Origin: Escherichia phage 172-1
Reading direction: 5' to 3' (one strand)
DNA: 64,000 bases
Sequence record: NC_028903.1
Made by a program: the position numbers and the translations under genes. Every line of letters starts with the position of its first letter. Positions within the stretch are counted from its first letter, which is position 1. The notes beneath the pieces are model-generated. The model did no database searches and was not told the origin of the DNA. It worked only from the letters and a program-made list of their open reading frames with translations. This document shows, one piece after another, positions 37,233-47,982 of this stretch.

Positions 37233-37508
37233 TTAACCTTTTGGGAATGGCATTAAAGATTCCATAGCAGATTTAATTTCGCTATTGATTCGAGCATCTC
37301 GATAAGAGATAAACTTACCTTTGCTATCTCGTAACATCACATGGGTTCTAGCTGTTACGTGGGGAAGTAATGTAATACTAGTTGGGATAGTGTCAATCCC
37401 TACAGAAAATTTGTCAATAGTCTTGCTTTCACTTAACAGATAAGACCAAGTTTGCTTCGGATGGTTAGGGTATGTGTCTCGAATTTGAACCATAGCTAAC
37501 TTATTCAT
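37233..37508 (-). CDS. small protein, paralog pair member
   Basis: shares ..TART.V.LR...GKFISY.......LxPFPKG with 37510..37761. Confidence 0.45.
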   Translation of the reverse strand: MNKLAMVQIRDTYPNHPKQTWSYLLSESKTIDKFSVGIDTIPTSITLLPHVTARTHVMLRDSKGKFISYRDARINSEIKSAMESLMPFPKG

Positions 37509-37509
37509 A

Positions 37510-37761
37510 TTAAACTCCTTTAGGGAATGGGATGAGGTTTTCTACTGCAACACGGAACTCTTTCTCTACGTTTTTATTCTTATAAGAAATGAATTTACCA
37601 TCAGCCCCACGGAGGATTACGTTAGTACGAGCTGTTTTTGGGTTATGACCAATCTGGTTTGCAATAATATTAGCAATGCCGTGGTTATTGGTAAATTTCC
37701 ATTTAACCATACGATTGTTAGACATTACATCAATGATATTTACAGATTTTACAATAGACAT
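37510..37761 (-). CDS. small protein, paralog pair member
   Basis: paralog of 37233..37508. Confidence 0.45.
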   Translation of the reverse strand: MSIVKSVNIIDVMSNNRMVKWKFTNNHGIANIIANQIGHNPKTARTNVILRGADGKFISYKNKNVEKEFRVAVENLIPFPKGV

Positions 37762-37829: not shown

Positions 37830-38153
37830 TTACGATGAGCTTAAAGCTCCTTTTCGCTTAGCAGCACCAGCTGCTTTTCCAGCTCGATTACCACTTTTGC
37901 CGCCGTTTGAACGGTTTGAGCTGACTGATTCAACACGTAAGTTGCTTGACGCATTAGAGCCTCCAGACTTGACAGCTCGTTTGTGTCCAACATCTTTACC
38001 TCTGACAGCAGCTTTTCCATCGCGCTTTTCAACGATGCGACGTGCACGGTGGCGCTGAGCATCTCCGCTCTTGCTCCCAACGCCTGTCTCACCACGGGCA
38101 ATTGCGGTACGTCTTTCTTGTGCATAATCTCTCTTTCCTACATGATCTGCCAT
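37830..38153 (-). CDS. basic low-complexity protein
   Basis: strong RBS aaggag; T-rich third codon positions like other genes here; Lys/Arg/Gly/Ser-rich. Confidence 0.4.
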   Translation of the reverse strand: MADHVGKRDYAQERRTAIARGETGVGSKSGDAQRHRARRIVEKRDGKAAVRGKDVGHKRAVKSGGSNASSNLRVESVSSNRSNGGKSGNRAGKAAGAAKRKGALSSS

Positions 38154-38209
38154 TTAAAACTCCTTAATATATCAGTGTACACTAAGGAGTATACATTATA
38201 AGTTGCTGT

Positions 38210-38947
38210 TTAAGCTTTCTTTTCCATTGCTTTAACAATAGCTTTACAGAAACCAGAACGAACAATGTCATCTGATTCGCCGTCTACAATCTCAGCGAAC
38301 TCATACAGATCATGTTCATCAATAAAGTTAGTAGCCCAAGTAAGACCACTCTCACGACCACGCATATCATGCTGGTTAGTGTCACCCATGCAGAACAATT
38401 GAGAGGTTTCTCCCAATCGAGTCATGATTGAGAAGGCTTCATCTTTAGTGGTGTTCTGGAACTCATCTACGATAACAATAGCATCGTTGAAAGAACGACC
38501 ACGGAGATACTCCAGAGGTACGAACTCAATATTACTGTTACCGAGCTGGCATTCATAGAACCCTTTACCATATCGCTGAGTAATAACATCAATGATAGGC
38601 ATCAAATATGGTTCAAACTTCTCACGCATCCCTCCCGGAAGCAACCCAAGAGAATTACCCATGCCGACCGAAGGGCGACTCAGGATAATCTTCTGAATCT
38701 TACCACTCTTCAGTGCATCGATAACCGTGGAAGTGATTACAAAGGTCTTACCACAGCCCGCAGGAGCGTCTGTGAACACAACTTGTTTAGTCTTGATAGC
38801 ATTGAGCAGTTCAGACTGGAACTGGTTCTGAGGGACTACAGGCTTTGCTAAAACCACCTCTTCAAACTCGCGCTTACCCTTACGAGTGACAAGTACTTCC
38901 CGACGAAGGTCTTTCCGTGATTCTTTCCGTGATTGACGACGACTCAT
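38210..38947 (-). CDS. phoH: PhoH-like ATPase
   Basis: DAPAGCGKTFV Walker A and conserved PhoH core (ILSRPSVGMG..LGLLPGG, IVIVDEFQNTT). Confidence 0.7.
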   Translation of the reverse strand: MSRRQSRKESRKDLRREVLVTRKGKREFEEVVLAKPVVPQNQFQSELLNAIKTKQVVFTDAPAGCGKTFVITSTVIDALKSGKIQKIILSRPSVGMGNSLGLLPGGMREKFEPYLMPIIDVITQRYGKGFYECQLGNSNIEFVPLEYLRGRSFNDAIVIVDEFQNTTKDEAFSIMTRLGETSQLFCMGDTNQHDMRGRESGLTWATNFIDEHDLYEFAEIVDGESDDIVRSGFCKAIVKAMEKKA

Positions 38948-39156
38948 TTACGCTCTCCAATTTCTTCGTAATGACATTCAGTAGTTAAACAATCTTTACA
39001 GATTGCTGTATAAACCCTGACGTTAGTAAATCGTTTGTTCTTCCCTTTGGTTGGAGAGCCTTTGGCAAGCTCTCTGATAACCTTGTTACTTAAATGAAGG
39101 TTTGTCCCTTCACATCTAGAGCACTTCACCACAATGTCCATTCGGTAAGAGACCAC
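38944..39156 (-). CDS. zinc-ribbon small protein
   Basis: CSRCEG ... CKDCLTTEC Cys pairs. Confidence 0.35.
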   Translation of the reverse strand: MVSYRMDIVVKCSRCEGTNLHLSNKVIRELAKGSPTKGKNKRFTNVRVYTAICKDCLTTECHYEEIGERK

Positions 39157-39326
39157 AGAGAGTCACCTATGTGGGCATTGTCATTCCTGATGAGGTCTTT
39201 GATTTTATCAACATCAGTTAAGTGAGTCACATTCAAAATATCCTCAACATCTGGGGCATATTTAAATATGGCAACAATACTGTTGTGATCTTCAGCATAT
39301 CTTTCTAGAACATAAACTACGCTCAT
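39126..39326 (-). CDS. hypothetical small protein
   Basis: 66-aa ORF. Confidence 0.3.
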   Translation of the reverse strand: MSVVYVLERYAEDHNSIVAIFKYAPDVEDILNVTHLTDVDKIKDLIRNDNAHIGDSLWSLTEWTLW

Positions 39327-39646
39327 GCGAAGTTAACCTCTTTATGAAGTCTGTAAACAGCTGTCGCCATACAAGCAACAGCTTCGTTATGTGGGAGATG
39401 CATCCCTGTAGAACCATCCCAATCTTTGAACTCATTGTCAAAGACTCCGGTAGGCTCTGGATACAAGGCTTGCAACTCAACCAAATCGTTAGCAACTTGT
39501 TGCCATTTATCATCAGACCAGATAGGGTCATCCAACCAGTAATACAAATAGGAATGGATGATCAATTGCCTTCTGTGCCGATTGATTACTTCAGCGGGAC
39601 TTATCTCACTTCCATTTGAAGTCCTAAATGTATTACTGTCAATCAT
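39323..39646 (-). CDS. hypothetical protein
   Basis: 107-aa ORF. Confidence 0.35.
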   Translation of the reverse strand: MIDSNTFRTSNGSEISPAEVINRHRRQLIIHSYLYYWLDDPIWSDDKWQQVANDLVELQALYPEPTGVFDNEFKDWDGSTGMHLPHNEAVACMATAVYRLHKEVNFA

Positions 39647-39891
39647 TTCACAACCTTAAATTTGAATGTTGTTGGGTGATAATAATGCAACCTGTTAATG
39701 GTGTGCTTTGTTTCAAGATATATCCTACAAGAGTGACACATCACATGATTCAGACCAGTTACAGGATTAGGTTTAAAGTTGGCGATAGGCTTCTCTTTCT
39801 TACAGAAGCTACAGACTTTCTTTTCCATCTTTTCTCCAGTGGTCAACGAACTGCTGAAACACTTTACGGTCAAATGTGAAATTACGAGCAA
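39643..39891 (-). CDS. zinc-finger small protein
   Basis: CSFCKK ... CHSCR motif; true start may be the internal Met. Confidence 0.35.
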   Translation of the reverse strand: MLVISHLTVKCFSSSLTTGEKMEKKVCSFCKKEKPIANFKPNPVTGLNHVMCHSCRIYLETKHTINRLHYYHPTTFKFKVVK

Positions 39892-40042
39892 TTCCGCATT
39901 CTCTAAAAGTGGCAGGCATATAATCTACATCACCTTCAGATGTATGACCATAGACTTGAATAAGTTTCTTAATCTTATCCTTCTCTCTTCGAGGAAGCAT
40001 TCTAAATGCCTCCTGAATATCTGTAATATGTTTTATCTTCAT
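39809..40042 (-). CDS. hypothetical small protein
   Basis: 77-aa ORF. Confidence 0.3.
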   Translation of the reverse strand: MKIKHITDIQEAFRMLPRREKDKIKKLIQVYGHTSEGDVDYMPATFRECGIARNFTFDRKVFQQFVDHWRKDGKESL

Positions 40043-40188
40043 CAGAAATTCCTGCTAATCCTCTGAGTTGTGGGAACAGCAATATTCACATACTCCACAA
40101 CAAGGGCAAATTTCTACACTTGGGTCATATGCATCATCAACTGTCATCCCACACTTGGTGCAGAACACATCATCATCTTCTTCCAATA

Positions 40189-40845
40189 TTAATTCTCCAA
40201 AGTTTTCTTCAGAGCTGCCCACGAGATTGGGTAGAGTTTAGCCATCTCTTCATCCAGAGATTGAGCAAACACTCGAACTTCATACTGAGCATGGGAGGAT
40301 AGTCGCTGACGACACAACTCAAACCAGCCATACAAAGAACCAGTCCACACCCACTCAGTGATCATTCCCTGAGGAAGAACAAATCGGGCTTGTTCTGGTG
40401 CAACGAACTCAATCAACTTGTCATATGCTGCTAGAGAAGCTTCATATGCATCGTTAATCAACATTAATGCTTCAGCTCGCTCTCCATTGATGAGTTGAAC
40501 CCCTGAACCTGCATGGAGGTCCGAAGGTCTCGCAAAAATCTCTTTAGGGATGAAGACTTCAACTGCTCCGTCTTTATACCTCCGGGACATTTCGTTCCAC
40601 GAAAACCCAATTTGGTGCTTGCCCAACTGTCTCGCAATTGCGATAGGTGCTTTGCATCGGAAACTGACTTGTGGGTGTCGGAATGGAGTAACATGCTTCT
40701 CTCTTGCGAGGAAGTTGATGAGACGTTCATCACGTTCATTTAAATCACCTTCACGGGTTACGCCAAAGGAAACTCGAGCTGCGTTTACTACGCTACGATC
40801 ACTTCCCATAGCTTCGATTAATGTTGCTTGTAATTGTTCATTCAT
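40189..40845 (-). CDS. thyX: flavin-dependent thymidylate synthase
   Basis: AARVSFG ... HVTPFRHPQVSF ... ARQLGKHQIGFSWNEMSRRY resembles the ThyX signature region (RHR-x7-S..SxRY). Confidence 0.7.
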   Translation of the reverse strand: MNEQLQATLIEAMGSDRSVVNAARVSFGVTREGDLNERDERLINFLAREKHVTPFRHPQVSFRCKAPIAIARQLGKHQIGFSWNEMSRRYKDGAVEVFIPKEIFARPSDLHAGSGVQLINGERAEALMLINDAYEASLAAYDKLIEFVAPEQARFVLPQGMITEWVWTGSLYGWFELCRQRLSSHAQYEVRVFAQSLDEEMAKLYPISWAALKKTLEN

Positions 40846-40860
40846 CCGTGAATTTCCTTA

Positions 40861-41070
40861 TTAATATTCTTTTACATAATAAACCACTAAGGTTCCCATC
40901 TCTGACAATGTTGATTTATGTAAGCTTACTTTACTATAAATCTTTGGGGCCATCTTAAGAGCCTTCTTAAAACGGCGAGCATCTTTACGAGTAGCAAAGT
41001 GCTCTGTAACAGGTATAGCCGGGTCTTGGTAGAGGTAATATACCACCGTCCAATATTTTTTCATAATCAA
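40861..41070 (-). CDS. small protein, paralog family B
   Basis: MKK.W.V ... TRK.ARRFKK ... VYY pattern shared with 42925, 43134, 43343. Confidence 0.4.
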   Translation of the reverse strand: MIMKKYWTVVYYLYQDPAIPVTEHFATRKDARRFKKALKMAPKIYSKVSLHKSTLSEMGTLVVYYVKEY

Positions 41071-41393
41071 ACACCTAGGGCAGTAGTTAAGAATGCTTTC
41101 AGGTTTGCTTCGGTCTGCATACCAGAGAGACTATAGTGTGCACCACTATTACGGTCAGGTACAACGAAAGCAGGGATGCTTCTTACACCATACTTAACAG
41201 CTTGTTCACGACCATCACCTTCAAGGATGTTAATCTCTTCTACTTCTACATCGAACTCCTTAACAACCTTCTCAAAGGTAGGAGCCATTGCTTTACATGG
41301 AGCACACTGATCACTATAAAACTTAATCACTTTAGACATTCTATTCCTTGTTAATAAACAGGTTGATATGACGTTGGGTAGCAGGAACAACAA
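41067..41393 (-). CDS. thioredoxin-like protein
   Basis: CAPC active-site motif in a 108-aa thioredoxin-sized ORF. Confidence 0.6.
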   Translation of the reverse strand: MLFLLPNVISTCLLTRNRMSKVIKFYSDQCAPCKAMAPTFEKVVKEFDVEVEEINILEGDGREQAVKYGVRSIPAFVVPDRNSGAHYSLSGMQTEANLKAFLTTALGV

Positions 41394-41529
41394 TAAAAGA
41401 TTTATACTGACCTTTTGCTAAGTCATGAGCAATCTTCTTTGTCTGACCAAGACCCATCACACAGCCACTAACAATAATGGCGTGTGCTTGCAACTCTTCA
41501 GGGAGTTTTAGTTTCATTCTTCAGGTTCC

Positions 41530-41715
41530 TTACAGCATAGCAAGAATGATAATAAGAGGTAATGTTATAGCGAAATTAATAAGAACAGCGCTGCCTAGCT
41601 TGATAGCTTTAACATCCTCTTCTGATGGGTTTTCTTTAATTGCTAAATTTCGAGCTTTATATATAACAGTACCAATTATTAACGACCACACGGCCCACAC
41701 AATCAGTGAAATCAT
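41530..41715 (-). CDS. small two-TM membrane protein
   Basis: 61 aa, two hydrophobic helices; paralog of the adjacent unlisted ORF. Confidence 0.4.
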   Translation of the reverse strand: MISLIVWAVWSLIIGTVIYKARNLAIKENPSEEDVKAIKLGSAVLINFAITLPLIIILAML

Positions 41716-41724
41716 ATCAAACCC

Positions 41725-41904
41725 TTATGCAGTCAGGAGGTGAAGCAGGAATGGGATAACAACAGCTACGACAACCATGATGGTTGATGCTGTTTGAATC
41801 TCACCTTTCTTGTCAGGAGTTTCTTCAATAAGCTTGCCAGAAGCCCAATAGATACCACCACCAATAAAGACAGCCCAAATACCCCATACGATTGCTGATA
41901 ACAT
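41725..41904 (-). CDS. small two-TM membrane protein (paralog, unlisted)
   Basis: 59-aa ORF MLSAIVWGIWAVFIGGGIYWASGKLIEETPDKKGEIQTASTIMVVVAVVIPFLLHLLTA, similar to 41530..41715. Confidence 0.3.
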   Translation of the reverse strand: MLSAIVWGIWAVFIGGGIYWASGKLIEETPDKKGEIQTASTIMVVVAVVIPFLLHLLTA

Positions 41905-41965
41905 ATATCTATATCCTTATAAATAAGTTCGCCCCACCTCGGGTTAGGAGACAGGGCGGAGGTTT

Positions 41966-42565
41966 TTAGTAAGACACATCGCCACTTGAGTGGGACATGT
42001 TGCTCTTGACGAAGTAGCAATACTTGCCAAGACCTTCATTAATTTCTTGAAGCATACTCTGATCAACTGGATAAGTGGCTAAATCACCATCAAACTCATC
42101 CATCTTCTCAATAATACACATCAAGGTCATGCACATATCAGAGAGCATACCGTCCATATCTAGGTCAGCATTACCCTCTGAGAACCAAGCATGGGAGAGA
42201 TAATTGGCTGCTGTGGCGTCCACTTTAACACAGTGGTAACGCATACGTTCAGCAATACGATCTCCTACTTGTCGTGCGTAATCTTCCAGCTCATCAAACA
42301 TACCATGAACACCCTGAAATCCTGCACCAGAGACGTTCCAATGGTAGTTTTTAGCTTTGATATGCAAGAGTTCCATGTTAGCTTGTAAGCAGCTCAGGAT
42401 GTGTTCTAGGCTGTTTCCACTAATCATACCCTGCATTGTTTCAAGGCGAGAGATTGAAAGCTCGGACCGGTCTAACATATTGTATTCGACACGACCAATA
42501 TCAGGTAAATCAAAGACATTCTTATGCATTTGGGTTATCTCCATCAAGTTCAACTGAATTAGCAA
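41966..42565 (-). CDS. Dps-like ferritin-fold protein
   Basis: NYHWNVSGAGFQGVHGMFDELEDYARQVGDRIAERM matches the Dps ferroxidase-site region. Confidence 0.6.
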   Translation of the reverse strand: MLIQLNLMEITQMHKNVFDLPDIGRVEYNMLDRSELSISRLETMQGMISGNSLEHILSCLQANMELLHIKAKNYHWNVSGAGFQGVHGMFDELEDYARQVGDRIAERMRYHCVKVDATAANYLSHAWFSEGNADLDMDGMLSDMCMTLMCIIEKMDEFDGDLATYPVDQSMLQEINEGLGKYCYFVKSNMSHSSGDVSY

Positions 42566-42851
42566 CGTTACGTTCGATGTTTGCCATCACTTGCTGCGTT
42601 ATGACAATACAGTTCTGTGGGTCTACTGACTTAGAACGCCCCATTTCAGGGTCATACACCTTAACTCGCTTAGCAGTTGAACCTGTAACCTGAAGAACCT
42701 TCAACAGATATCCCTGATTACCAATAGACCAAGCAACAACATCACGATTCTTGATAAAGCGACCAAGCATATCACGATGATAAAACTGTTGCATCACCTT
42801 GGATTTTGTAATCTCTTCAGTGGGCGGGGCCACTTTACTCAAATCTAACAT
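42522..42851 (-). CDS. hypothetical protein
   Basis: 109-aa ORF; AAATGTATA motif about 41 nt upstream (42892-42900, reverse). Confidence 0.35.
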   Translation of the reverse strand: MLDLSKVAPPTEEITKSKVMQQFYHRDMLGRFIKNRDVVAWSIGNQGYLLKVLQVTGSTAKRVKVYDPEMGRSKSVDPQNCIVITQQVMANIERNVANSVELDGDNPNA

Positions 42852-42924
42852 AACTCTCTCCTGTAAAAATACAAATTCTTATTGTACTCTATATACATTT
42901 GAGAGTTACCATATCTACTACCAA

Positions 42925-43134
42925 TCAGTAGTAAACATTCCGAGATAGCATACAAGTACTTTCTGAGAATTCAACCCAACGGTGTATGCTAACATGCTCA
43001 ACCGTACCGACCAGAGCTTTCATATTCTTTTTAGCAATACGAGCCTCTTTGCGAGTGTTAAACAGTTTGATATTATCTTTTCCCAAGTGTTGCTCGTGAT
43101 TCCAAACAACACGAATAGCCCACATCTTTTTCAT
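42925..43134 (-). CDS. small protein, paralog family B
   Basis: tandem paralog (..TRKEARIAKKNMK ... VYY). Confidence 0.45.
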   Translation of the reverse strand: MKKMWAIRVVWNHEQHLGKDNIKLFNTRKEARIAKKNMKALVGTVEHVSIHRWVEFSESTCMLSRNVYY

Positions 43135-43343
43135 CAGTAGTGTACCTTTCCGCTGATATAAACACGACCAGAGGAATACTCTCTGGCCTTATGAATACTG
43201 ATGCTCTTGATCATATCTATATTAAACATGGACTTTTTAAAATCTCGAGCTTGTTGGCGAGTAGGTAGTGCAGTCATAGTCATACCGCCTGATGCCCACT
43301 TAATCTTTGCTAACCAAAACTGTCTCATAGTGATTGGTCTCAT
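43134..43343 (-). CDS. small protein, paralog family B
   Basis: tandem paralog (..TRQQARDFKKSM ... VHY). Confidence 0.45.
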   Translation of the reverse strand: MRPITMRQFWLAKIKWASGGMTMTALPTRQQARDFKKSMFNIDMIKSISIHKAREYSSGRVYISGKVHY

Positions 43344-43540
43344 TAATAATAAACCTTGCTGTTGGCAAAAAGAGCACCTTCGTTATTCACAATAGCTTTT
43401 CCTATTGTAACCTTATTGAGTCTAAAAGTAGACTTGTATTGGTTTTTGACCCTACGGGCGTGTTCTCGAGTATTAACAAAATCTACAGCTACTAACTCTC
43501 CAGTCGTGTTATCATGTACACGAACAATCCACTTTTTCAT
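43343..43540 (-). CDS. small protein, paralog family B
   Basis: tandem paralog (..TREHARRVKNQYK ... VYY). Confidence 0.45.
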   Translation of the reverse strand: MKKWIVRVHDNTTGELVAVDFVNTREHARRVKNQYKSTFRLNKVTIGKAIVNNEGALFANSKVYY

Positions 43541-43743
43541 TTTACTAAACCCTTCATAAAGTTATAAAGATCATTAGAGGCTTTACCCCATTCAAGGTGC
43601 TTCTTATCCATATAGCTCTTACATGCTTCTTTACTACTTTCGACGCATATATCAAATTGATGACATGCTCGACCAAATGTCATAGCTTTTAATTGAACCT
43701 CGGTAGTCAAACCTTTCAGTTCTTGGAACTCTTCTTCAGTCAT
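43537..43743 (-). CDS. hypothetical small protein
   Basis: 68-aa ORF. Confidence 0.35.
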   Translation of the reverse strand: MTEEEFQELKGLTTEVQLKAMTFGRACHQFDICVESSKEACKSYMDKKHLEWGKASNDLYNFMKGLVK

Positions 43744-44277
43744 TTACACACCCTTAGATGCAACAACACCTTCAGAGTTATTATAACGACCCTTCACTGC
43801 ATAGGAATGTTCCCCTGCATGAGAGTGCTCAAACATCACCATCTGACCAACACGCATACCAGCACGAACTCGTAAGCTATGATGCTTGGTTACGTTGTGG
43901 AATTCAAACGTCAGCTTACTGCTATTAAATCCAGCATCAGCCCATCCAGCATGTAGGTGGTTCAAACCACAACGAGCCATAGATGAACGAAGAACAAACA
44001 GGCTTGAGATATTATCTGGAAGATTAAACTCCTCCATGGAGTGAGCCAAGAAGAACTGACCCGGAGTGATAACCAAACCCTCTTCAGGAATCTTTACTTC
44101 CTTCCACTGAAGATTTTCTTTCGCATCAATATCAACGATGCCATCAGCCTGTTCTTCAACAAGGATAGTATCACCAATACGGATATCCACACTAGCAGCG
44201 TTAACATACTTATGCTCCGCATCCAGATAGCCATTGTCAATTACATCGTGCAGTTCAACACTTCCTAGTAAACTCAT
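43744..44277 (-). CDS. dCTP deaminase / dUTPase-family protein
   Basis: VDIRIGD ... ITPGQFFLAHSMEEFNLP ... LRSSMARCGLNH ... FEFHN ... GMRVGQMVMFEH parallels E. coli Dcd. Confidence 0.7.
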   Translation of the reverse strand: MSLLGSVELHDVIDNGYLDAEHKYVNAASVDIRIGDTILVEEQADGIVDIDAKENLQWKEVKIPEEGLVITPGQFFLAHSMEEFNLPDNISSLFVLRSSMARCGLNHLHAGWADAGFNSSKLTFEFHNVTKHHSLRVRAGMRVGQMVMFEHSHAGEHSYAVKGRYNNSEGVVASKGV

Positions 44278-44286
44278 TCTTATTCC

Positions 44287-45699
44287 TTAGTTATTTGTTT
44301 CCATGTCAAAAGAGATTCCACGACCCGCTTCATCGGCAAACCGAACTGTACGGGTTTGAGGCTGCAATACTTCAGGGTTATCAGCAACAAAGCGATCAGC
44401 GAGACTGCGGCTGACGGTCTCAGCTAATTCACCATGAGAAGGGATATTAAGATCGGCGAGATTATCAACCACATCTTGGGCCACGTCTTCATCAGTCCAT
44501 ACAGCCCTAACAGGTGCGTTGAAACTCTGACCAGAGAACTGGTGACGGCTAACAGTCAAACCATTTGATTGACCATTAGAACGTCTAGACAACCACTGCT
44601 CAAATGAATCGCCAGTAACACCAAGAGCTTCTTCAAAAGATGTTCTACGAGTAGAGCTTAGATTTCGTGCTTCGTTTGCTCGACGTCTTGCAGGGGCTAC
44701 AAACACCCCTTCAACTGCATTGTGCCGATTAGGTTCATCTTCTCGACCAAGGAGATCTCCTCCTGTATTAGTTGTTAAGTTTGTCAACCCTTCAGACCAA
44801 TATGCACGAATCTGGCTAGAGCCATGAACACTTGACATTAACTGAATCTCTTCGTAAGGTATTCCAAAGAATAGACTCATGTCTCGGTTAACACAGTATT
44901 GAGCACTTGTTGTATCCTCAATAAGAGAAACCTGACCTAATCCATTAACCAGATGACTAACTGGCTGAGGTGTAGGAAGGTATCGAGTTTGGGCCATATA
45001 TTGATATGCAACAGATGGAGCTGAGAATCTTAACACTTGTGAATTAGGCCACTTTTTGTGAACGTATCTGATTTCACGACTAGAAACAACCACAGGGCAA
45101 GGAGCGGTCATAGCTAAATATCCATGAGGAGTCATGAATAGGTTGTCAAGAGTCATCGCACCACGGCACATCATAGGAAAATTATCCAATACCTCTTCAA
45201 TAGAAGTAGGATAATTAAACATGAATTGAATGCGGGTTCCATTCCACTGAAACTCAATAATATCAGTGAATGTTAATTGAGAACCCCCAGCATATGATTC
45301 GTTTGTAGCTTCAGCAAGAAGGGATGCATACTCGATATCTTGTGATTCAAGCCACTCTTTCACATTGCTTTCAATCTCTCGTCCAAGAGCTTGCCAATGA
45401 TCAACTGTAGTGAAAGTATTTTGAGTCCCTGGCGTCTGTCCTCTGACAACGAAGATATCAATATCGTGAGGTGCTATGTTATTAAGCACGGCATCACGAA
45501 CAGCCCCACCAGTAATGATAGGGCAAATGCCGTCTGGAATCAAGTTGTTGTTAATCAACTGTTCAATGAAGTGACGACCAACAGTGATATCAGGTTGTTG
45601 AGCAACCTTATCTTCAATTCGGTTAATCGGGATAACAATCATTTTACATTTTCCAATATAATGAAGGTGGGTCGTAAGGGTCAAATCCCGTGAGTTCAC
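44287..45699 (-). CDS. nucleotidyltransferase, CCA-adding enzyme / poly(A) polymerase-like head domain
   Basis: [23 protein letters not shown] matches the class II NTase signature GGxVRD...DxD. Confidence 0.55.
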
Positions 45700-46198
45700 A
45701 CAAGTATTTATAAACCTTAACGGTTAAGTTAACGTCCTGTTCACAGTAAGTAAACATATCTTCAGTGAAAGCATCCCATGCTTCCTCTTGCTCACCGTAG
45801 TCTCCTTTAAGTTCCTCTAAGAACTCACCCCATTGCTTCAAACCATGACCTCTTGGGCCATGTCTAGGGTCACCTTTCGGATACTCAGGACTGTCACCAA
45901 TACGGTCAGGTTTAAGATATCGACTAAGACACAAGGTGTCGAAGACGTTAAAACGATAGTCGATCAGATTGGGATACATCTTCTTCAGAGCACAAAGGTC
46001 GAAGTCAATAATATTATGACCTACGAGCACATCAGCTTCTGTAAGTTTACGAATCCCATCTTCAATTTGGTGAGGCCGATAGCCCCACCTTTCACCAGTT
46101 TCAACATCGAAGATGTAAATACACCACACTTTAGTTATGTCATCGTACAGTGCATTACTCTCGATATCAAATGCAAACACTTTCTTTTTCTTTACCAC
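45644..46198 (-). CDS. 3'-5' exonuclease (DEDDy, DNA polymerase proofreading-like)
   Basis: Exo I FAFDIES, Exo II HNIIDFD, Exo III YCEQD. Confidence 0.65.
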
Positions 46199-47982
46199 GG
46201 TGAAGCTCCATCTGCTTGATTGACGAGAGAAGCTGCATCCTCTCCGTTAGTCAAAACGAATGGATTATCTTCATCAACTTCAAAGTCTTCCCTTTCTACA
46301 AGTCTACCGGTTTCGCTGATATACTTAGTATAACAGACACCCGTCTGACCATAGTTACGTTCTTTCAGTAATCGAATGACTGAGAGGTTCTTAGCTAAGC
46401 CGTCAGCTTGCTTATCACGCTCAAAGCCAATGATACACTGACACCAACGCATAAGAGAACGAGAGCCAGTGAACTGTACTTCACGTACCTGTCCACCTTC
46501 TTCGTGAGGAGCACCACCTGCCGGAGCATTAAGGTGAGATAGCACGAAAGCGGTAAAGTCTAATTCTTTACACATACCAGCAAGCTCGGAAGCAATCTTA
46601 CTGATTTCAGTGTTAATCTCTGAAGGTGTTAAATGAGATACCAGAGCGGTAATGTTATCAAGAATGATGAACTTACACTGGTTTTCAACTACCCAGAAAC
46701 GGATACACTGTTTAATATCTTCCCATTCGTTCTGCCCAAAGTTGTCATACAAGAAGAATTTGTCTGCATAACGAAGTGCTTCATTACGCAAATCCTCCTC
46801 GTCATATTCAACATCGGGTCGGTGGAAAGGAATTGATGCTGACTTACCAGCGATGTTCTTAACAGACATGCCTACCTTCTCTTCCAAGAAGAAGCCACCC
46901 CCATTAAAGCCATGCTCTAAGCACAGATGAGCAACCAGTTCGTGAGCAATTAGTGTTTTACCACTACCTACACCACCACCGATGGCTACTACCTCTCCCC
47001 ATCGAATACCGAAGGTCATCTCATTAAGAGTTTTCCACGGATATGGAATACCCCACTCCGCTTTCTTCAGAGCATCATCAAGGCAATCAAAGATTGTTAC
47101 AGCACCAGCAGGAGATTCCCGCTTTGCTGAATACTTGAGAATGTTGAATAACTCTTGACCACGACCAGACAGAAGCATGTCATTCGCATCCTTAATCTCT
47201 TTCTCCACACCGTTGTATGGGAAAGTTCCTTTAGGAATACGAGCAAACTTGACATGAGGGAATAAAGAACGACCTTTTGTTAAAGCTATCTCACCTGCAT
47301 CGTCATTGTCCATGCAGAGCACAACCTCCTCAAAACCATTTACGAAGTCTCGATTACGAGACAACACAGAAGAGATTGAACCTGCACCGAACGGTAAAGA
47401 AACACATGCTGGCTTAATATTTGTTGCATTTGTAAAAGCTGTAAGGACATGGAAACCAGACATACAAGATAGCGGGTCTTCAAAAATAAACAGCTTCTTG
47501 TTGTACACATCTCCACGTTGAGCTTGTGCCATACCAAATAAGTCTGCTTCTTTCACACTGCCAACGTAATAAAACTTCTTACTATCTAGCAGCTTAACCT
47601 CGTAACCAACAATGTTTCCATCACGTTCACGAGGAAAGAAGTAGCTGTCTGGAGTCTGACCATCAGTCTGACTTAGACCAATGCGACACTCAAAACGCTC
47701 TGATACAGCTTTAGGGATTAAACGTCGAGTAAGTTCACCCTGAGGAAGCTCTAAGCAATCATCTAAGACTTCTCTCAATTCTTCAGGGGATAACTCTTTC
47801 TTCTCGTTTGGAGTGGGTGTAGTGCCCTTTTCGAACACTTCGTAATTCCCACAACGGTTACAACTTCCCCACTCCTCACCTGTCTCTTCGTTACGGAAGA
47901 GAATCATGTGGTTGTGGGTTTTATCACGACCATGAGAGATACATTCCTTACAACCTGTGTCTCCCAAAATGATCTTTGACAT
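46192..47982 (-). CDS. DNA primase-helicase
   Basis: N-terminal Cys4 zinc ribbon (CKEC...CNRC), central primase region, C-terminal Walker [10 protein letters not shown] helicase. Confidence 0.8.

What the first reader, a model, noticed from the sequence alone, without database searches (positions are those of the whole stretch)
40189..44277. Dps-like, thioredoxin, ThyX and dCTP deaminase genes clustered; a Dps homolog in a phage is unusual
ThyX (40189..40845), thioredoxin (41067..41393), a Dps-like protein (41966..42565) and dCTP deaminase (43744..44277) sit within 4 kb. ThyX plus Dcd give a dUMP-to-dTMP route; thioredoxin could serve as reductant or polymerase processivity factor as for T7. 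Dps (iron sequestration and DNA protection) is rarely phage-encoded and might protect replicating DNA from oxidative stress or manage iron.
Basis: partly seen in the sequence, partly recalled or inferred. Interest (0 to 1): 0.5.

Follow-up and report, generated by a model that had tools for sequence, protein, structure and literature searches.

The report
Known Dps gene in phiEco32-like phage
The four genes are real and correctly named, but this is the already-annotated nucleotide-metabolism block of a phiEco32-like E. coli phage, whose Dps-type mini-ferritin has been on record since 2008 and has never been tested functionally.

Summary
The window is a Kuravirus (phiEco32-like E. coli podophage), 98% identical to phage NJ01 across this region. 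All four ORFs exist on the minus strand and all four family assignments hold: ThyX, a short thioredoxin (true start 41339, 90 aa, CAPC site), a Dps-family protein (true start 42529, 187 aa) and dCTP deaminase.

The finding's own refutation test fails to refute it. The Dps-like protein passes Pfam Ferritin, keeps every ferroxidase residue, and its AlphaFold model matches only Dps dodecamer subunits among the top 50 PDB hits.

phiEco32 gp67 is annotated "member of the Dps family", and the SU10 and Privateer papers discuss the Dps and thioredoxin genes.

What I add:
- The cluster straddles the early/middle transcription boundary.
- Dps is translationally coupled to a conserved small protein (gp68) at the head of the middle operon.
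- A conserved hairpin follows the Dps stop codon.
- The Dps tails are acidic, so the "DNA-binding" label is unsupported.
- Many GenBank records mislabel this gene "integrase".

Dps is rare in phages (135 of 50,697 records) but is a core gene of this lineage. Its most likely role is Fe2+/H2O2 detoxification during replication. A packaged-in-virion role is not excluded.

The parts
40189..40845 (-). ThyX, flavin-dependent thymidylate synthase (218 aa). The signature motif reads K-H-Q...S-R-R-Y where the canonical form is R-H-R...S-x-R-Y.
   Evidence: Pfam Thy1 8.8e-44 and TIGR02170 above its cutoff. Best PDB match is 6j61 at 6.7e-31. The KHQ variant occurs in every C3-phage ThyX checked and in 119 of the 120 best homologs.
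40861..41070 (-). Small ORF (about 67-69 aa). It is one of four paralogs and sits between ThyX and Trx here and in NJ01, but not in phiEco32 or SU10.
   Evidence: Pairwise BLASTP E-values of 3e-4 to 5e-8 among the four copies. Annotations.
41067..41339 (-). Short thioredoxin (90 aa) with a CAPC active site and a conserved cis-Pro (SIPAF). It lacks the N-terminal beta1-alpha1 of E. coli TrxA.
   Evidence: Pfam Thioredoxin 2e-13. PDB thioredoxin matches of about 2e-9 that start at residue ~23 of the target. Start codon and RBS.
41341..41904 (-). Three small ORFs: a 58-aa ORF (41341-41517) and two paralogous membrane-like proteins (41530-41715 and 41725-41904). phiEco32 has only one of the membrane-like pair, gp66.
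41930..41958 (-). G+C-rich hairpin (11 bp stem, 7 G-C pairs) starting 8 nt after the Dps stop codon. It is probably a partial terminator or an mRNA-stabilising structure.
   Evidence: Terminator scan. Folding energy -18.5 kcal/mol, z-score -2.5. The stem is identical in SU7 although the loop differs and the region is only about 79% identical.
41966..42529 (-). Dps-family mini-ferritin (187 aa, 21.2 kDa, pI 4.7). It has a four-helix core with a BC helix and a 44-aa N-terminal extension. Ferroxidase residues are H63, W64, H75, D79, D90 and E94.
   Evidence: dN/dS against SU7 is 0.02 for the core and 0.21 for the extension.
42522..42851 (-). gp68-like protein (109 aa, pI 8.8, function unknown). 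Its stop codon overlaps the Dps start by 8 nt, so the two are probably translationally coupled. It is a conserved partner of Dps in C3 podophages.
   Evidence: PHROG 10984 at 1.4e-64. Homologs lie directly upstream of Dps in Privateer and LAh_8, with E-values of 6e-18 and 1e-20. dN/dS 0.06. The model (pLDDT 64) is a small beta-barrel with only weak KOW/Tudor/PWWP-like matches.
42892..42899 (-). AATGTATA, the core of the phage-sigma (gp36-type) promoter motif. It marks the first middle promoter and is followed by a strong RBS before gp68.
   Evidence: 7 copies in the window against 2.2 expected; none of 100 shuffles reached 7; every copy is co-oriented with the local genes. The SU10 paper places a middle promoter upstream of CDS68. 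Sequence.
42925..43743 (-). Three tandem paralogous small ORFs (42925-43134, 43134-43343, 43343-43540) and a 68-aa ORF (43537-43743, PHROG 2347). By homology to SU10 CDS69-72 these are the last early genes.
43744..44277 (-). dCTP deaminase (177 aa), an early gene. The Ser/Arg motif (RSSMARCGL) and the catalytic Glu (TFEFHN) align with solved enzymes.
   Evidence: Pfam DCD 3.5e-34 and TIGR02274 107.7 bits against a cutoff of 92.8. PDB matches: 4xjc 6e-15, M. tuberculosis Dcd:dut 2qxx/2qlp at 7e-14 and 1.5e-12, E. coli Dcd 7e-8.

Best explanation
This is the conserved nucleotide-supply and redox block of a Kuravirus genome.

Dcd is transcribed early. It deaminates dCTP to dUTP, or directly to dUMP if it is the bifunctional type.

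At the switch to middle transcription, a promoter upstream of gp68 drives gp68, Dps, thioredoxin and ThyX as the first middle genes. This occurs just as phage DNA replication begins. ThyX then converts dUMP to dTMP.

The Dps-like protein is a genuine Dps-family mini-ferritin. By inference it assembles into a dodecamer whose inter-subunit ferroxidase centres use H2O2 or O2 to oxidise Fe2+ and store it as a ferric core. That removes both Fenton reactants while large amounts of phage DNA and redox-sensitive enzymes are active. In the cell it probably does not bind DNA through the classical lysine-rich tail, because its tails are acidic.

The short thioredoxin is more likely a T7-style accessory of the T7-like phage DNA polymerase than a reductant for a phage reductase, because the phage has no such reductase.

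Shown here: gene identities, fold, conservation of catalytic residues, purifying selection, operon position and synteny. Inferred: oligomeric state, ferroxidase activity, physiological role and the thioredoxin partner.

The confidence of 0.55 is for the whole statement. It is about 0.9 for the gene identities and Dps family membership, and about 0.45 for the physiological role.
For: Identity of the phage and prior annotation.

Dps family membership:
- Pfam Ferritin above its cutoff and PHROG 3636 at 2.9e-55.
- phmmer matches to solved Dps proteins across residues 63-188.
- H-W-x10-H-x3-D-x10-D-x3-E is intact and invariant in 18 sequences down to 29% identity.
- The AF2 model (pLDDT 79.8) has the A-B-BC-C-D helix topology.
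- All top 50 Foldseek PDB hits are Dps, for example 1jig with TM 0.89 and rmsd 1.1 A.
- Strong purifying selection, with core dN/dS of 0.02.

Timing: the middle promoter motif at 42892 and the published early/middle boundary at CDS68/69.

Link to nucleotide metabolism: Dps lies beside ThyX, Trx, Dcd or NrdD/NrdG in Privateer, 7-11, LAh_8 and L007.

Plausible local source of reactive oxygen: ThyX has an NAD(P)H-oxidase side reaction with O2 (PMC3498832). That the product is H2O2 rests on my own knowledge.

Precedent: an oxidative-stress role was proposed for Dps in gut phages (PMC8008677).

Thioredoxin: no RNR is annotated in SU10. The polymerase is closest to T7 gp5 at 1e-32. Its residues 72-134 align with T7 gp5 293-362 at E 5e-5, overlapping the thioredoxin-binding domain.
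Against: - No biochemical or genetic data exist for any phage Dps in the papers I could search.
- Across 78 other viral contigs carrying Dps relatives, Dps is almost never linked to ThyX, Trx or Dcd. The proposed ThyX-Dps functional link therefore rests on one lineage's synteny, which could simply reflect shared ancestry.
- Privateer keeps Dps, yet its paper never mentions a thymidylate synthase.
- Dps was detected in CsCl-purified Privateer virions and in SU10 preparations. A purely intracellular role does not predict this.
- The host already has its own Dps, so the benefit of a phage copy is unexplained.
- The thioredoxin-binding-domain similarity is a single weak pairwise segment.
Confidence: 0.55

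Rival explanations
1. The Dps-like protein is a virion component. It is packaged in the prolate head, possibly through its conserved N-terminal extension or through gp68. There it could stabilise or condense the packaged DNA, carry iron, or enter the cell with the genome to protect it. This would resemble ferritin-like cargo inside HK97-fold encapsulin shells.
For: - Dps was detected by MS in CsCl-purified Privateer particles, alongside ten structural proteins.
- Dps was detected in SU10 preparations with 35.8% coverage and 6 peptides.
- The gene is conserved in all C3-morphotype podophages.
- BFVD holds Dps-fold viral proteins annotated 'Prohead protease', 333-763 aa long.
- In IMG/VR locus L047 a 743-aa Dps fusion lies directly after a portal gene, which is the protease/scaffold slot.
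- The promoter upstream of gp68-Dps carries the same phage-sigma motif as the late promoters.
Against: - The SU10 MS sample also contained many clearly non-structural proteins, including DNA polymerase, PhoH, the sigma factor and ATP-grasp enzymes. It was therefore not clean.
- The SU10 cryo-EM study names gp20-24 as head-internal ejection proteins and never mentions Dps, although only major gel bands were analysed.
- The gene lies in the replication module, not the structural module.
- Iron-loaded dodecamers might simply co-band with phage in CsCl (my inference).
- The fusion proteins belong to unrelated phages.
Confidence: 0.15
2. The protein acts mainly as a DNA-binding or DNA-compacting protein, as the database label 'DNA-binding protein' implies. 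It would coat replicating phage DNA or the host nucleoid. The basic gp68 beta-barrel could serve as the DNA adaptor that the acidic Dps lacks.
For: - Some Dps proteins do bind and condense DNA (established knowledge).
- The extra N-terminal helix at residues 25-37 recalls the Lactococcus lactis Dps N-terminal helix, which is needed for DNA binding (my recollection).
- gp68 is basic (pI 8.8) and is always paired with Dps.
- gp68's weak fold matches include nucleic-acid-binding small barrels such as KOW, a PWWP bound to ssDNA, and the integrase C-terminal domain.
Against: - The phage Dps has pI 4.7. Its N-terminal extension has 4 basic against 7 acidic residues, and its C-tail is not basic. This is unlike the lysine-rich tail of E. 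coli Dps.
- The gp68 model is of low confidence (pLDDT 64), and no fold match reaches E 0.001.
- The ferroxidase site is under the strongest constraint. That points to catalysis as the selected function.
Confidence: 0.1
3. The protein manages iron supply and does not act in protection. It would buffer or deliver iron for iron-dependent nucleotide enzymes, such as the host class Ia RNR di-iron site or the NrdG Fe-S activase in relatives. Alternatively it would withhold iron from host processes.
For: - In LAh_8, Dps lies between NrdG and an NrdR-like gene.
- In Privateer and L007, Dps is followed by a small NrdD-like ORF.
- Dps proteins store up to hundreds of iron atoms (established knowledge).
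Against: Kuraviruses keep Dps but have no annotated RNR or other obvious iron enzyme. No iron-release partner is evident.
Confidence: 0.1
4. Dcd, the neighbouring 470-aa nucleotidyltransferase and the variant ThyX are not ordinary dTTP supply. They would be part of a pathway that alters the phage DNA bases, for example a high-dU or modified pyrimidine, which would explain the restriction resistance of Gordonclarkvirinae.
For: - The BASEL paper reports marked RM resistance. It speculates on dU-DNA arising from Dcd plus the nucleotidyltransferase.
- The ThyX signature R-H-R is K-H-Q throughout this phage subfamily.
Against: - A thymidylate synthase plus a dNMP kinase argues for normal dTTP synthesis and against replacing T with dU.
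- ThyX scores above the equivalog cutoff, and its dUMP-binding Ser/Arg residues align.
- These phages are routinely sequenced by standard methods.
Confidence: 0.05

Closest known systems
phiEco32 gp67 / SU10 gp67 / NJ01_081 (Kuravirus 'DNA-binding protein, member of the Dps family')
   Same: Orthologs at 96-98% amino-acid identity with the same neighbours and the same operon position. SU10 gp67 is the top BFVD hit at 98% identity.
   Different: Nothing of substance. The window and NJ01 carry a few extra small ORFs around it: one paralog between ThyX and Trx, and three small ORFs between Trx and Dps where phiEco32 has one.
Bacterial Dps dodecamers (M. smegmatis Dps2 2z90/4m35, B. anthracis Dlp-2 1jig, B. 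subtilis MrgA 2chp, E. coli Dps 1dps)
   Same: Four-helix bundle with a BC helix. The inter-subunit ferroxidase ligands H, H, D / D, E and the adjacent Trp are present. Target-normalised TM is 0.8-0.9.
   Different: - Only 19-27% identical.
- It forms a small separate subfamily: only 7 of 3468 representatives exceed 1e-30.
- It has a 44-aa acidic N-terminal extension with a conserved S-x-x-R-L-E/D-x-M helix.
- It has no basic tail.
- It scores below the NCBIfam equivalog cutoff (34 against 114 bits).
Dps genes of other phages (Gratiaviridae and other gut phages, Lactobacillus phages LP65/Semele, Bacillus phage G gp346, Synechococcus phage S-SRM01)
   Same: Stand-alone ferritin/Dps-fold proteins encoded by phages. 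An oxidative-stress role has been proposed for them.
   Different: They are sequence-distant (15-27% identical). They lack the gp68 partner and the Dcd/Trx/ThyX neighbourhood. The gut-phage paper overlooked the Kuravirus examples.
T7 gp5 - E. coli thioredoxin processivity complex
   Same: The phage polymerase's closest solved relative is T7 gp5. A weak alignment covers part of the thioredoxin-binding domain and helix H1. The phage also has a thioredoxin-fold protein.
   Different: - Here the thioredoxin is phage-encoded and truncated (90 aa), with CAPC where E. coli TrxA has CGPC.
- The position matching E. coli TrxA Gly74 (residue number from my recollection) is Ser: SIP here against GIP in the aligned thioredoxin.
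- The polymerase's exonuclease is a separate polypeptide.
- No binding has been shown.
Encapsulin nanocompartments with ferritin-like cargo
   Same: This applies only under the packaged-Dps reading: a ferritin-superfamily protein associated with an HK97-fold shell.
   Different: No targeting peptide has been identified. The shell is a DNA-filled phage head. Virion association is unproven. The comparison rests on my own knowledge, not on a test made here.

Membership tests
Dps (DNA-binding protein from starved cells) mini-ferritin family | Ferritin-like four-helix bundle with a short BC helix in the long crossover loop | tested here: met
   The AF2 model has helices at 41-65, 71-98, 107-112, 125-150 and 154-176. 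All top 50 Foldseek PDB hits are Dps, with TM up to 0.92. Pfam PF00210 scores 31 bits against a cutoff of 24.5.
Dps (DNA-binding protein from starved cells) mini-ferritin family | Inter-subunit ferroxidase ligands: H-x11-H-x3-D on helix A/B and D-x3-E on helix B, with the adjacent Trp | tested here: met
   H63, W64, H75, D79, D90 and E94 (187-aa numbering) are present. They are invariant in 18 phage homologs down to 29% identity.
Dps (DNA-binding protein from starved cells) mini-ferritin family | Assembly into a hollow dodecamer with 23 symmetry | not testable with these tools
   Only a monomer could be modelled. No multimer prediction or experiment was available.
Dps (DNA-binding protein from starved cells) mini-ferritin family | Ferroxidase activity and iron-core formation | not testable with these tools
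   This requires biochemistry. No published assay on any phage Dps was found.
Dps (DNA-binding protein from starved cells) mini-ferritin family | DNA binding through a lysine/arginine-rich N- or C-terminal tail. This is a feature of the DNA-binding subset and is not required for family membership. | tested here: not met
   Protein pI is 4.72. The N-terminal 44 residues have 4 K+R against 7 D+E. The C-tail is SNMSHSSGDVSY. The first 22 residues of E. coli Dps have pI 10.
ThyX (flavin-dependent thymidylate synthase) | Thy1/ThyX fold and profile match above the curated cutoffs | tested here: met
   PF02511 at 8.8e-44. TIGR02170 at 128.8 bits against a cutoff of 87.9. PDB ThyX matches down to 6.7e-31.
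ThyX (flavin-dependent thymidylate synthase) | Signature motif R-H-R-x7-S-x-R-Y | tested here: inconclusive
   The motif reads K-H-Q-IGFSWNEM-S-R-R-Y. His, Ser and R-Y are kept, while both flanking Arg residues are replaced. The variant is fixed in 119 of 120 homologs, so it is selected and not decayed. Activity has not been tested.
dCTP deaminase (dUTPase superfamily) | Profile match above the cutoff, with the catalytic Ser/Arg motif and Glu | tested here: met
   TIGR02274 scores 107.7 bits against a cutoff of 92.8. RSSMARCGL and TFEFHN align with RSSVGRLGL and ITLELFN of 4xjc and with the M. tuberculosis enzyme.
Bifunctional dCTP deaminase:dUTPase (dUMP-forming) | Hydrolysis of the dUTP intermediate to dUMP | tested here: inconclusive
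   - The best PDB matches are 4xjc (bifunctional by my recollection) and M. tuberculosis Dcd:dut, confirmed for 2QLP in PMC5519681.
- E. coli monofunctional Dcd scores lower.
- The M. jannaschii bifunctional enzyme also scores low.
- No diagnostic residue test was possible.
Thioredoxin | Thioredoxin fold with a CxxC active site and a cis-Pro loop | tested here: met
   PF00085 at 2e-13. The CAPC site and SIPAF loop align with CGPC and GIPT of solved thioredoxins. It is below the NCBIfam TrxA equivalog cutoff (49.8 against 96.8 bits) and lacks the first ~20 residues.
T7-type polymerase-thioredoxin processivity pair | A thioredoxin-binding insertion in the polymerase thumb that binds thioredoxin | tested here: inconclusive
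   - Polymerase residues 72-134 align with T7 gp5 293-362 at 30% identity and E 5e-5, for the single pairwise comparison.
- T7 residues 269-302 lie in the TBD and helix H1 spans 339-348.
- The N-terminal half of the TBD has no detectable match.
- Binding is untested.

The most novel reading that the evidence does not exclude
The Kuravirus Dps-like protein, together with its constant partner gp68, is loaded into the prolate capsid. It would be a ferritin-type cargo of an HK97-fold phage head, the phage counterpart of encapsulin iron compartments. It would either protect the densely packed genome or enter the cell with the DNA.

Three observations would then reflect one biology: MS detection in purified Privateer and SU10 particles, Dps-fold 'prohead protease' fusions in BFVD, and a Dps fusion in the post-portal slot of an uncultured phage.
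Probability: 0.12. Interest if true: 0.7.

Novelty: already known. Interest (0 to 1): 0.25.

Why it matters
The finding itself is a correct re-reading of published annotation, so it matters little on its own. Three residual points have some value.

1. No phage Dps has been characterised. This one is an abundant, strongly constrained core gene of a phage group now used in therapy and included in the BASEL collection. A knockout and a ferroxidase assay would therefore be cheap and informative.

2. Many GenBank records call this gene 'integrase'. That label can wrongly flag strictly lytic therapy candidates as temperate.

3. Repeated detection in purified virions, together with Dps fusions to head-assembly proteins in other phages, raises a testable question: do some phages carry a mini-ferritin inside the capsid?

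Tried and rejected
1. Natural knockout. Kuravirus myPSH1131 lacks Dps, Trx and gp68 across its whole record. However, the record has fragmented and duplicated essential genes (primase/helicase, PolA, PhoH, a terminase of 981 nt, a triplicated ATP-grasp gene). I judge it a faulty assembly and draw no conclusion about dispensability.

2. General ThyX-Dps co-occurrence. Among 80 IMG/VR Dps loci, only the two C3-podophage loci plus L078 and L080 carry ThyX within 10 kb. The proposed ThyX-H2O2 link therefore has no support outside this lineage.

3. gp68 function. The model has pLDDT 64 and no Foldseek hit reaches E 0.001. Pfam finds nothing. This gives only a fold hint.

4. Original phiEco32 papers (PMC2587145, PMC3275717). 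They are not held, so the transcription classes are cited second-hand from the SU10 paper.

5. Context of the Dps+DUF6321 fusion P0131. The only contig is 1.5 kb long.

6. Sigma-70 promoter scan. It found fewer hits than the shuffles did, and none upstream of gp68 at its threshold. The phage-sigma motif search was the informative one.

7. T4-type L/I-x-E protease sites in the Dps N-extension. None fits on inspection, so I make no claim.

Full report
**What the window is.** Megablast of 38000-47000 finds 98 phage records, the best being Escherichia phage NJ01 at 98.0% identity over 100% of the query. The others are Kuravirus and related Gordonclarkvirinae, including phiEco32 and SU10. The window is therefore a phiEco32-like E. 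coli podophage of the C3 (prolate-head) morphotype.

**Checking the observation.** All four ORFs exist on the minus strand at the stated coordinates, and all four family assignments hold.
- ThyX: Pfam Thy1 8.8e-44; TIGR02170 128.8 bits against a cutoff of 87.9.
- Thioredoxin: Pfam 2e-13.
- Dps-like: Pfam Ferritin 2.7e-7, at 31 bits against a 24.5 cutoff but covering only residues 67-120; PHROG 3636 2.9e-55 over the whole core.
- Dcd: Pfam DCD 3.5e-34; TIGR02274 107.7 bits against a cutoff of 92.8.

Two ORF starts are too long.
- Thioredoxin begins most plausibly at ATG 41339, behind AAGGAA, giving 90 aa.
- Dps begins at ATG 42529, giving 187 aa and 21.2 kDa.
- These starts agree with the phiEco32, NJ01 and SU10 annotations and with the 21.2 kDa listed for SU10 CDS67.
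- Homologs down to 52% identity keep a length of 185-195 aa.

It does not fail.
- phmmer against PDB sequences returns 59 hits at E<=1, nearly all Dps proteins. The best are M. smegmatis Dps2 entries at about 3e-9, aligned across residues 63-188.
- The Dps ferroxidase pattern H-W-x10-H-x3-D-x10-D-x3-E is intact.
- In 187-aa numbering, H63, W64, H75, D79, D90 and E94 are invariant in 14 close homologs and in 18 sequences that include Privateer, 7-11 and Aeromonas LAh_8 at 29-42% identity.
- An AlphaFold2 model (pLDDT 79.8) has the Dps topology: helices A 41-65, B 71-98, short BC 107-112, C 125-150 and D 154-176, plus an extra N-terminal helix at 25-37.
- All top 50 Foldseek PDB matches are Dps subunits, for example B. 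anthracis Dlp-2 with TM 0.89 and rmsd 1.1 A.
- Against the SU7 ortholog, dN/dS is 0.02 for the core and 0.21 for the N-terminal extension. Synonymous sites are near saturation, so the ratios are approximate.

An exhaustive profile search finds 3468 cluster representatives at E<=1e-3 but only 7 at E<=1e-30. The phage protein therefore belongs to a small, distinct branch of the Dps family.

**What it lacks.** The protein is acidic (pI 4.7). Its 44-residue N-terminal extension has 4 basic and 7 acidic residues, and its C-tail is not basic. The first 22 residues of E. coli Dps, by contrast, have pI 10. The database label 'DNA-binding protein' is thus inherited from the family name and has no support in the sequence. 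Many Dps proteins do not bind DNA, so this does not affect family membership.

**Is it new?** No.
- phiEco32 gp67 is annotated 'DNA-binding protein; member of the Dps family' (EU330206).
- NJ01_081 carries a DPS-domain note.
- The SU10 paper lists thioredoxin (CDS65), the DPS-domain protein (CDS67) and CDS68 among the genes shared by all five C3 phages then sequenced. It also detected Dps and Trx by mass spectrometry (PMC4281155).
- The Privateer paper detected Dps in CsCl-purified particles and proposed thioredoxin as a T7-like processivity factor (PMC7881722).
- Dps genes are also described in Lactobacillus phages and in the Gratiaviridae plus 36 other gut phages, with an oxidative-stress interpretation (PMC8008677).

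Rarity is real. tblastn finds 135 of 50,697 phage records, and at least 358 IMG/VR contigs encode a relative. BFVD holds 16 viral Dps-fold entries at E<=1e-3. I found no functional study of any phage Dps.

**Genomic and transcriptional context.**
- The SU10 paper, citing Pavlova 2012, sets early genes as CDS69-125 and middle genes as CDS25-68. It places a promoter upstream of CDS68 that carries the phage-sigma motif tAATGTATAtA.
- In the window, AATGTATA occurs 7 times against 2.2 expected, and none of 100 shuffles reached 7. Every copy is co-oriented with the local genes.
- The three minus-strand copies (42892, 38190, 31628) fit the three reported middle promoters.
- The finding's 4 kb therefore straddles a transcription boundary. 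Dcd and the small ORFs at 42925-43743 are early. gp68, Dps, Trx and ThyX are the first middle genes.
- gp68 (42522-42851) overlaps the Dps start by 8 nt and follows a strong RBS.
- The strongest hairpin of the region begins 8 nt after the Dps stop. Its stem is identical in SU7 although the loop differs and the region is only about 79% identical.

**Conserved partner.** Homologs of gp68 lie immediately upstream of Dps in Privateer and LAh_8 (BLASTP E 6e-18 and 1e-20), and next to Trx in 7-11 and in IMG/VR contig L007. In these distant phages Dps always lies in the nucleotide block: abutting ThyX in 7-11, between NrdG and an NrdR-like gene in LAh_8, and before a small NrdD-like ORF in Privateer. 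Among 80 IMG/VR Dps loci, gp68, Trx and Dcd accompany Dps only in the two C3-podophage loci, so the module is lineage-specific. gp68 is basic (pI 8.8) and under purifying selection (dN/dS 0.06). It models as a small five-stranded barrel at low confidence (pLDDT 64), with only weak KOW/Tudor/PWWP-like matches.

**The other three genes.**
- *RNR and dUTPase.* Kuraviruses have no annotated ribonucleotide reductase or dUTPase, but they do have a dNMP kinase.
- *Dcd.* Its catalytic Ser/Arg and Glu motifs align with solved enzymes. Its best PDB relatives are 4xjc and the M. tuberculosis enzyme. 2QLP is confirmed as the bifunctional Dcd:dut in PMC5519681; 4XJC as bifunctional is my recollection. Direct dUMP formation is therefore possible but unproven. 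Otherwise host Dut is required.
- *ThyX.* It carries K-H-Q in place of the signature R-H-R. This is shared by every C3-phage ThyX checked and by 119 of the 120 best homologs down to 54% identity. It is a fixed subfamily trait, not decay.
- *Thioredoxin.* It is a truncated form with a CAPC site and a conserved cis-Pro.
- *Polymerase.* Its closest solved relative is T7 gp5 at 1e-32. A second BLASTP segment aligns its residues 72-134 with T7 293-362 at E 5e-5. That overlaps the C-terminal part of the thioredoxin-binding domain and helix H1 (PMC9198812). The support for the processivity idea is modest.

**Most likely mechanism.** The most probable function is a dodecameric mini-ferritin made at the onset of replication. 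It would consume H2O2 or O2 to oxidise and sequester Fe2+, limiting Fenton damage to replicating DNA and to redox-sensitive enzymes. ThyX itself has an NAD(P)H-oxidase side reaction with O2 (PMC3498832). The fold, the ligands, the selection and the timing are shown here. The oligomeric state, the activity and the physiological benefit are inferred.

**The unresolved oddity.** Dps turns up in purified virion preparations of two distant relatives. The SU10 sample was clearly contaminated with non-structural proteins, and the later cryo-EM study examined only major bands. Even so, BFVD contains Dps-fold proteins annotated 'Prohead protease'. In IMG/VR locus L047, a 743-aa ORF with an N-terminal Dps domain lies directly after a portal gene. 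A capsid-associated role therefore cannot be dismissed. I give it roughly 0.12-0.15.

**Verdict.** The finding is ordinary and already annotated.

Noticed in passing
window 41966-42529 (-); GenBank records listed: The Dps ortholog is labelled 'integrase' in many Kuravirus records, for example IME267, ES17, EcoN5, DE5, YW01, KM01 and PE006. P0005, a 188-aa PF00210 protein, is named 'integrase [Escherichia phage IME267]'. This is a false lysogeny flag for strictly lytic phages that are used or proposed for therapy.
   Followed up: partly
window 40861-41070, 42925-43134, 43134-43343, 43343-43540 (-): Four paralogous 65-69 aa ORFs (pairwise BLASTP E 3e-4 to 5e-8) share a T-R-x-x-A-R-x-x-K-K core and a C-terminal Tyr. 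Three are in tandem at the end of the early region. One is inserted between ThyX and Trx here and in NJ01, where it is annotated 'putative ABC transporter', but not in phiEco32 or SU10.
   Followed up: partly
window 41530-41715 and 41725-41904 (-): Two paralogous small hydrophobic (membrane-like) proteins lie between Trx and Dps. phiEco32 and SU10 have only one (gp66).
   Followed up: no
window 37233-37508 and 37510-37761 (-): An adjacent paralogous pair of about 83-91 aa proteins with a shared C-terminal half (…GKFISY…PFPKG). Function unknown.
   Followed up: no
window 39323-39646 (-): A stand-alone 107-aa protein consisting only of the NAD+-dependent DNA ligase Ia domain (PF22745, 2.7e-35). 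Relatives annotate it as 'NAD-dependent DNA ligase', although the catalytic domains are absent.
   Followed up: no
window 40189-40845 (-), residues 76-78: The ThyX signature R-H-R is K-H-Q. The variant is fixed across this phage ThyX subfamily: every C3-phage ThyX checked and 119 of the 120 best homologs down to 54% identity. All solved ThyX structures matched here have R-H-R.
   Followed up: partly
window 44287-45699 (-): A 470-aa nucleotidyltransferase (PHROG 12715 at 5.9e-259; only a weak Pfam PolyA_pol head-domain hit at 0.0033) lies between Dcd and the polymerase exonuclease subunit. The BASEL paper links it and Dcd to a possible DNA modification that would explain restriction resistance. 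The co-located ThyX and dNMP kinase argue against simple dU-DNA.
   Followed up: no
L047 140-652 and 664-2895 (+); BFVD entries A0A6J7XDU5, A0A6J7WPK9, A0A6J7WIS1; P0131: Dps domains occur as fusions in head-assembly contexts in uncultured phages.
- A 743-aa Ferritin+DUF5824 ORF lies directly after a portal gene.
- BFVD holds Dps-fold proteins annotated 'Prohead protease'.
- P0131 is a 406-aa Dps+DUF6321 protein. DUF6321 also ends several unrelated PHROG families.
   Followed up: partly
window 5306, 16939, 22173, 31701 (+); 31628, 38190, 42892 (-): Seven copies of AATGTATA (2.2 expected), all oriented with the local transcription. They match the middle and late phage-sigma promoters reported for phiEco32 and SU10. 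Copies 31628 (-) and 31701 (+) are divergent and only about 70 nt apart.
   Followed up: partly
MG983840.1 (loci L089-L091): The myPSH1131 genome record lacks Dps, Trx and gp68. It also shows many truncated and duplicated essential genes, so it looks like a faulty assembly and not a natural deletion variant.
   Followed up: yes
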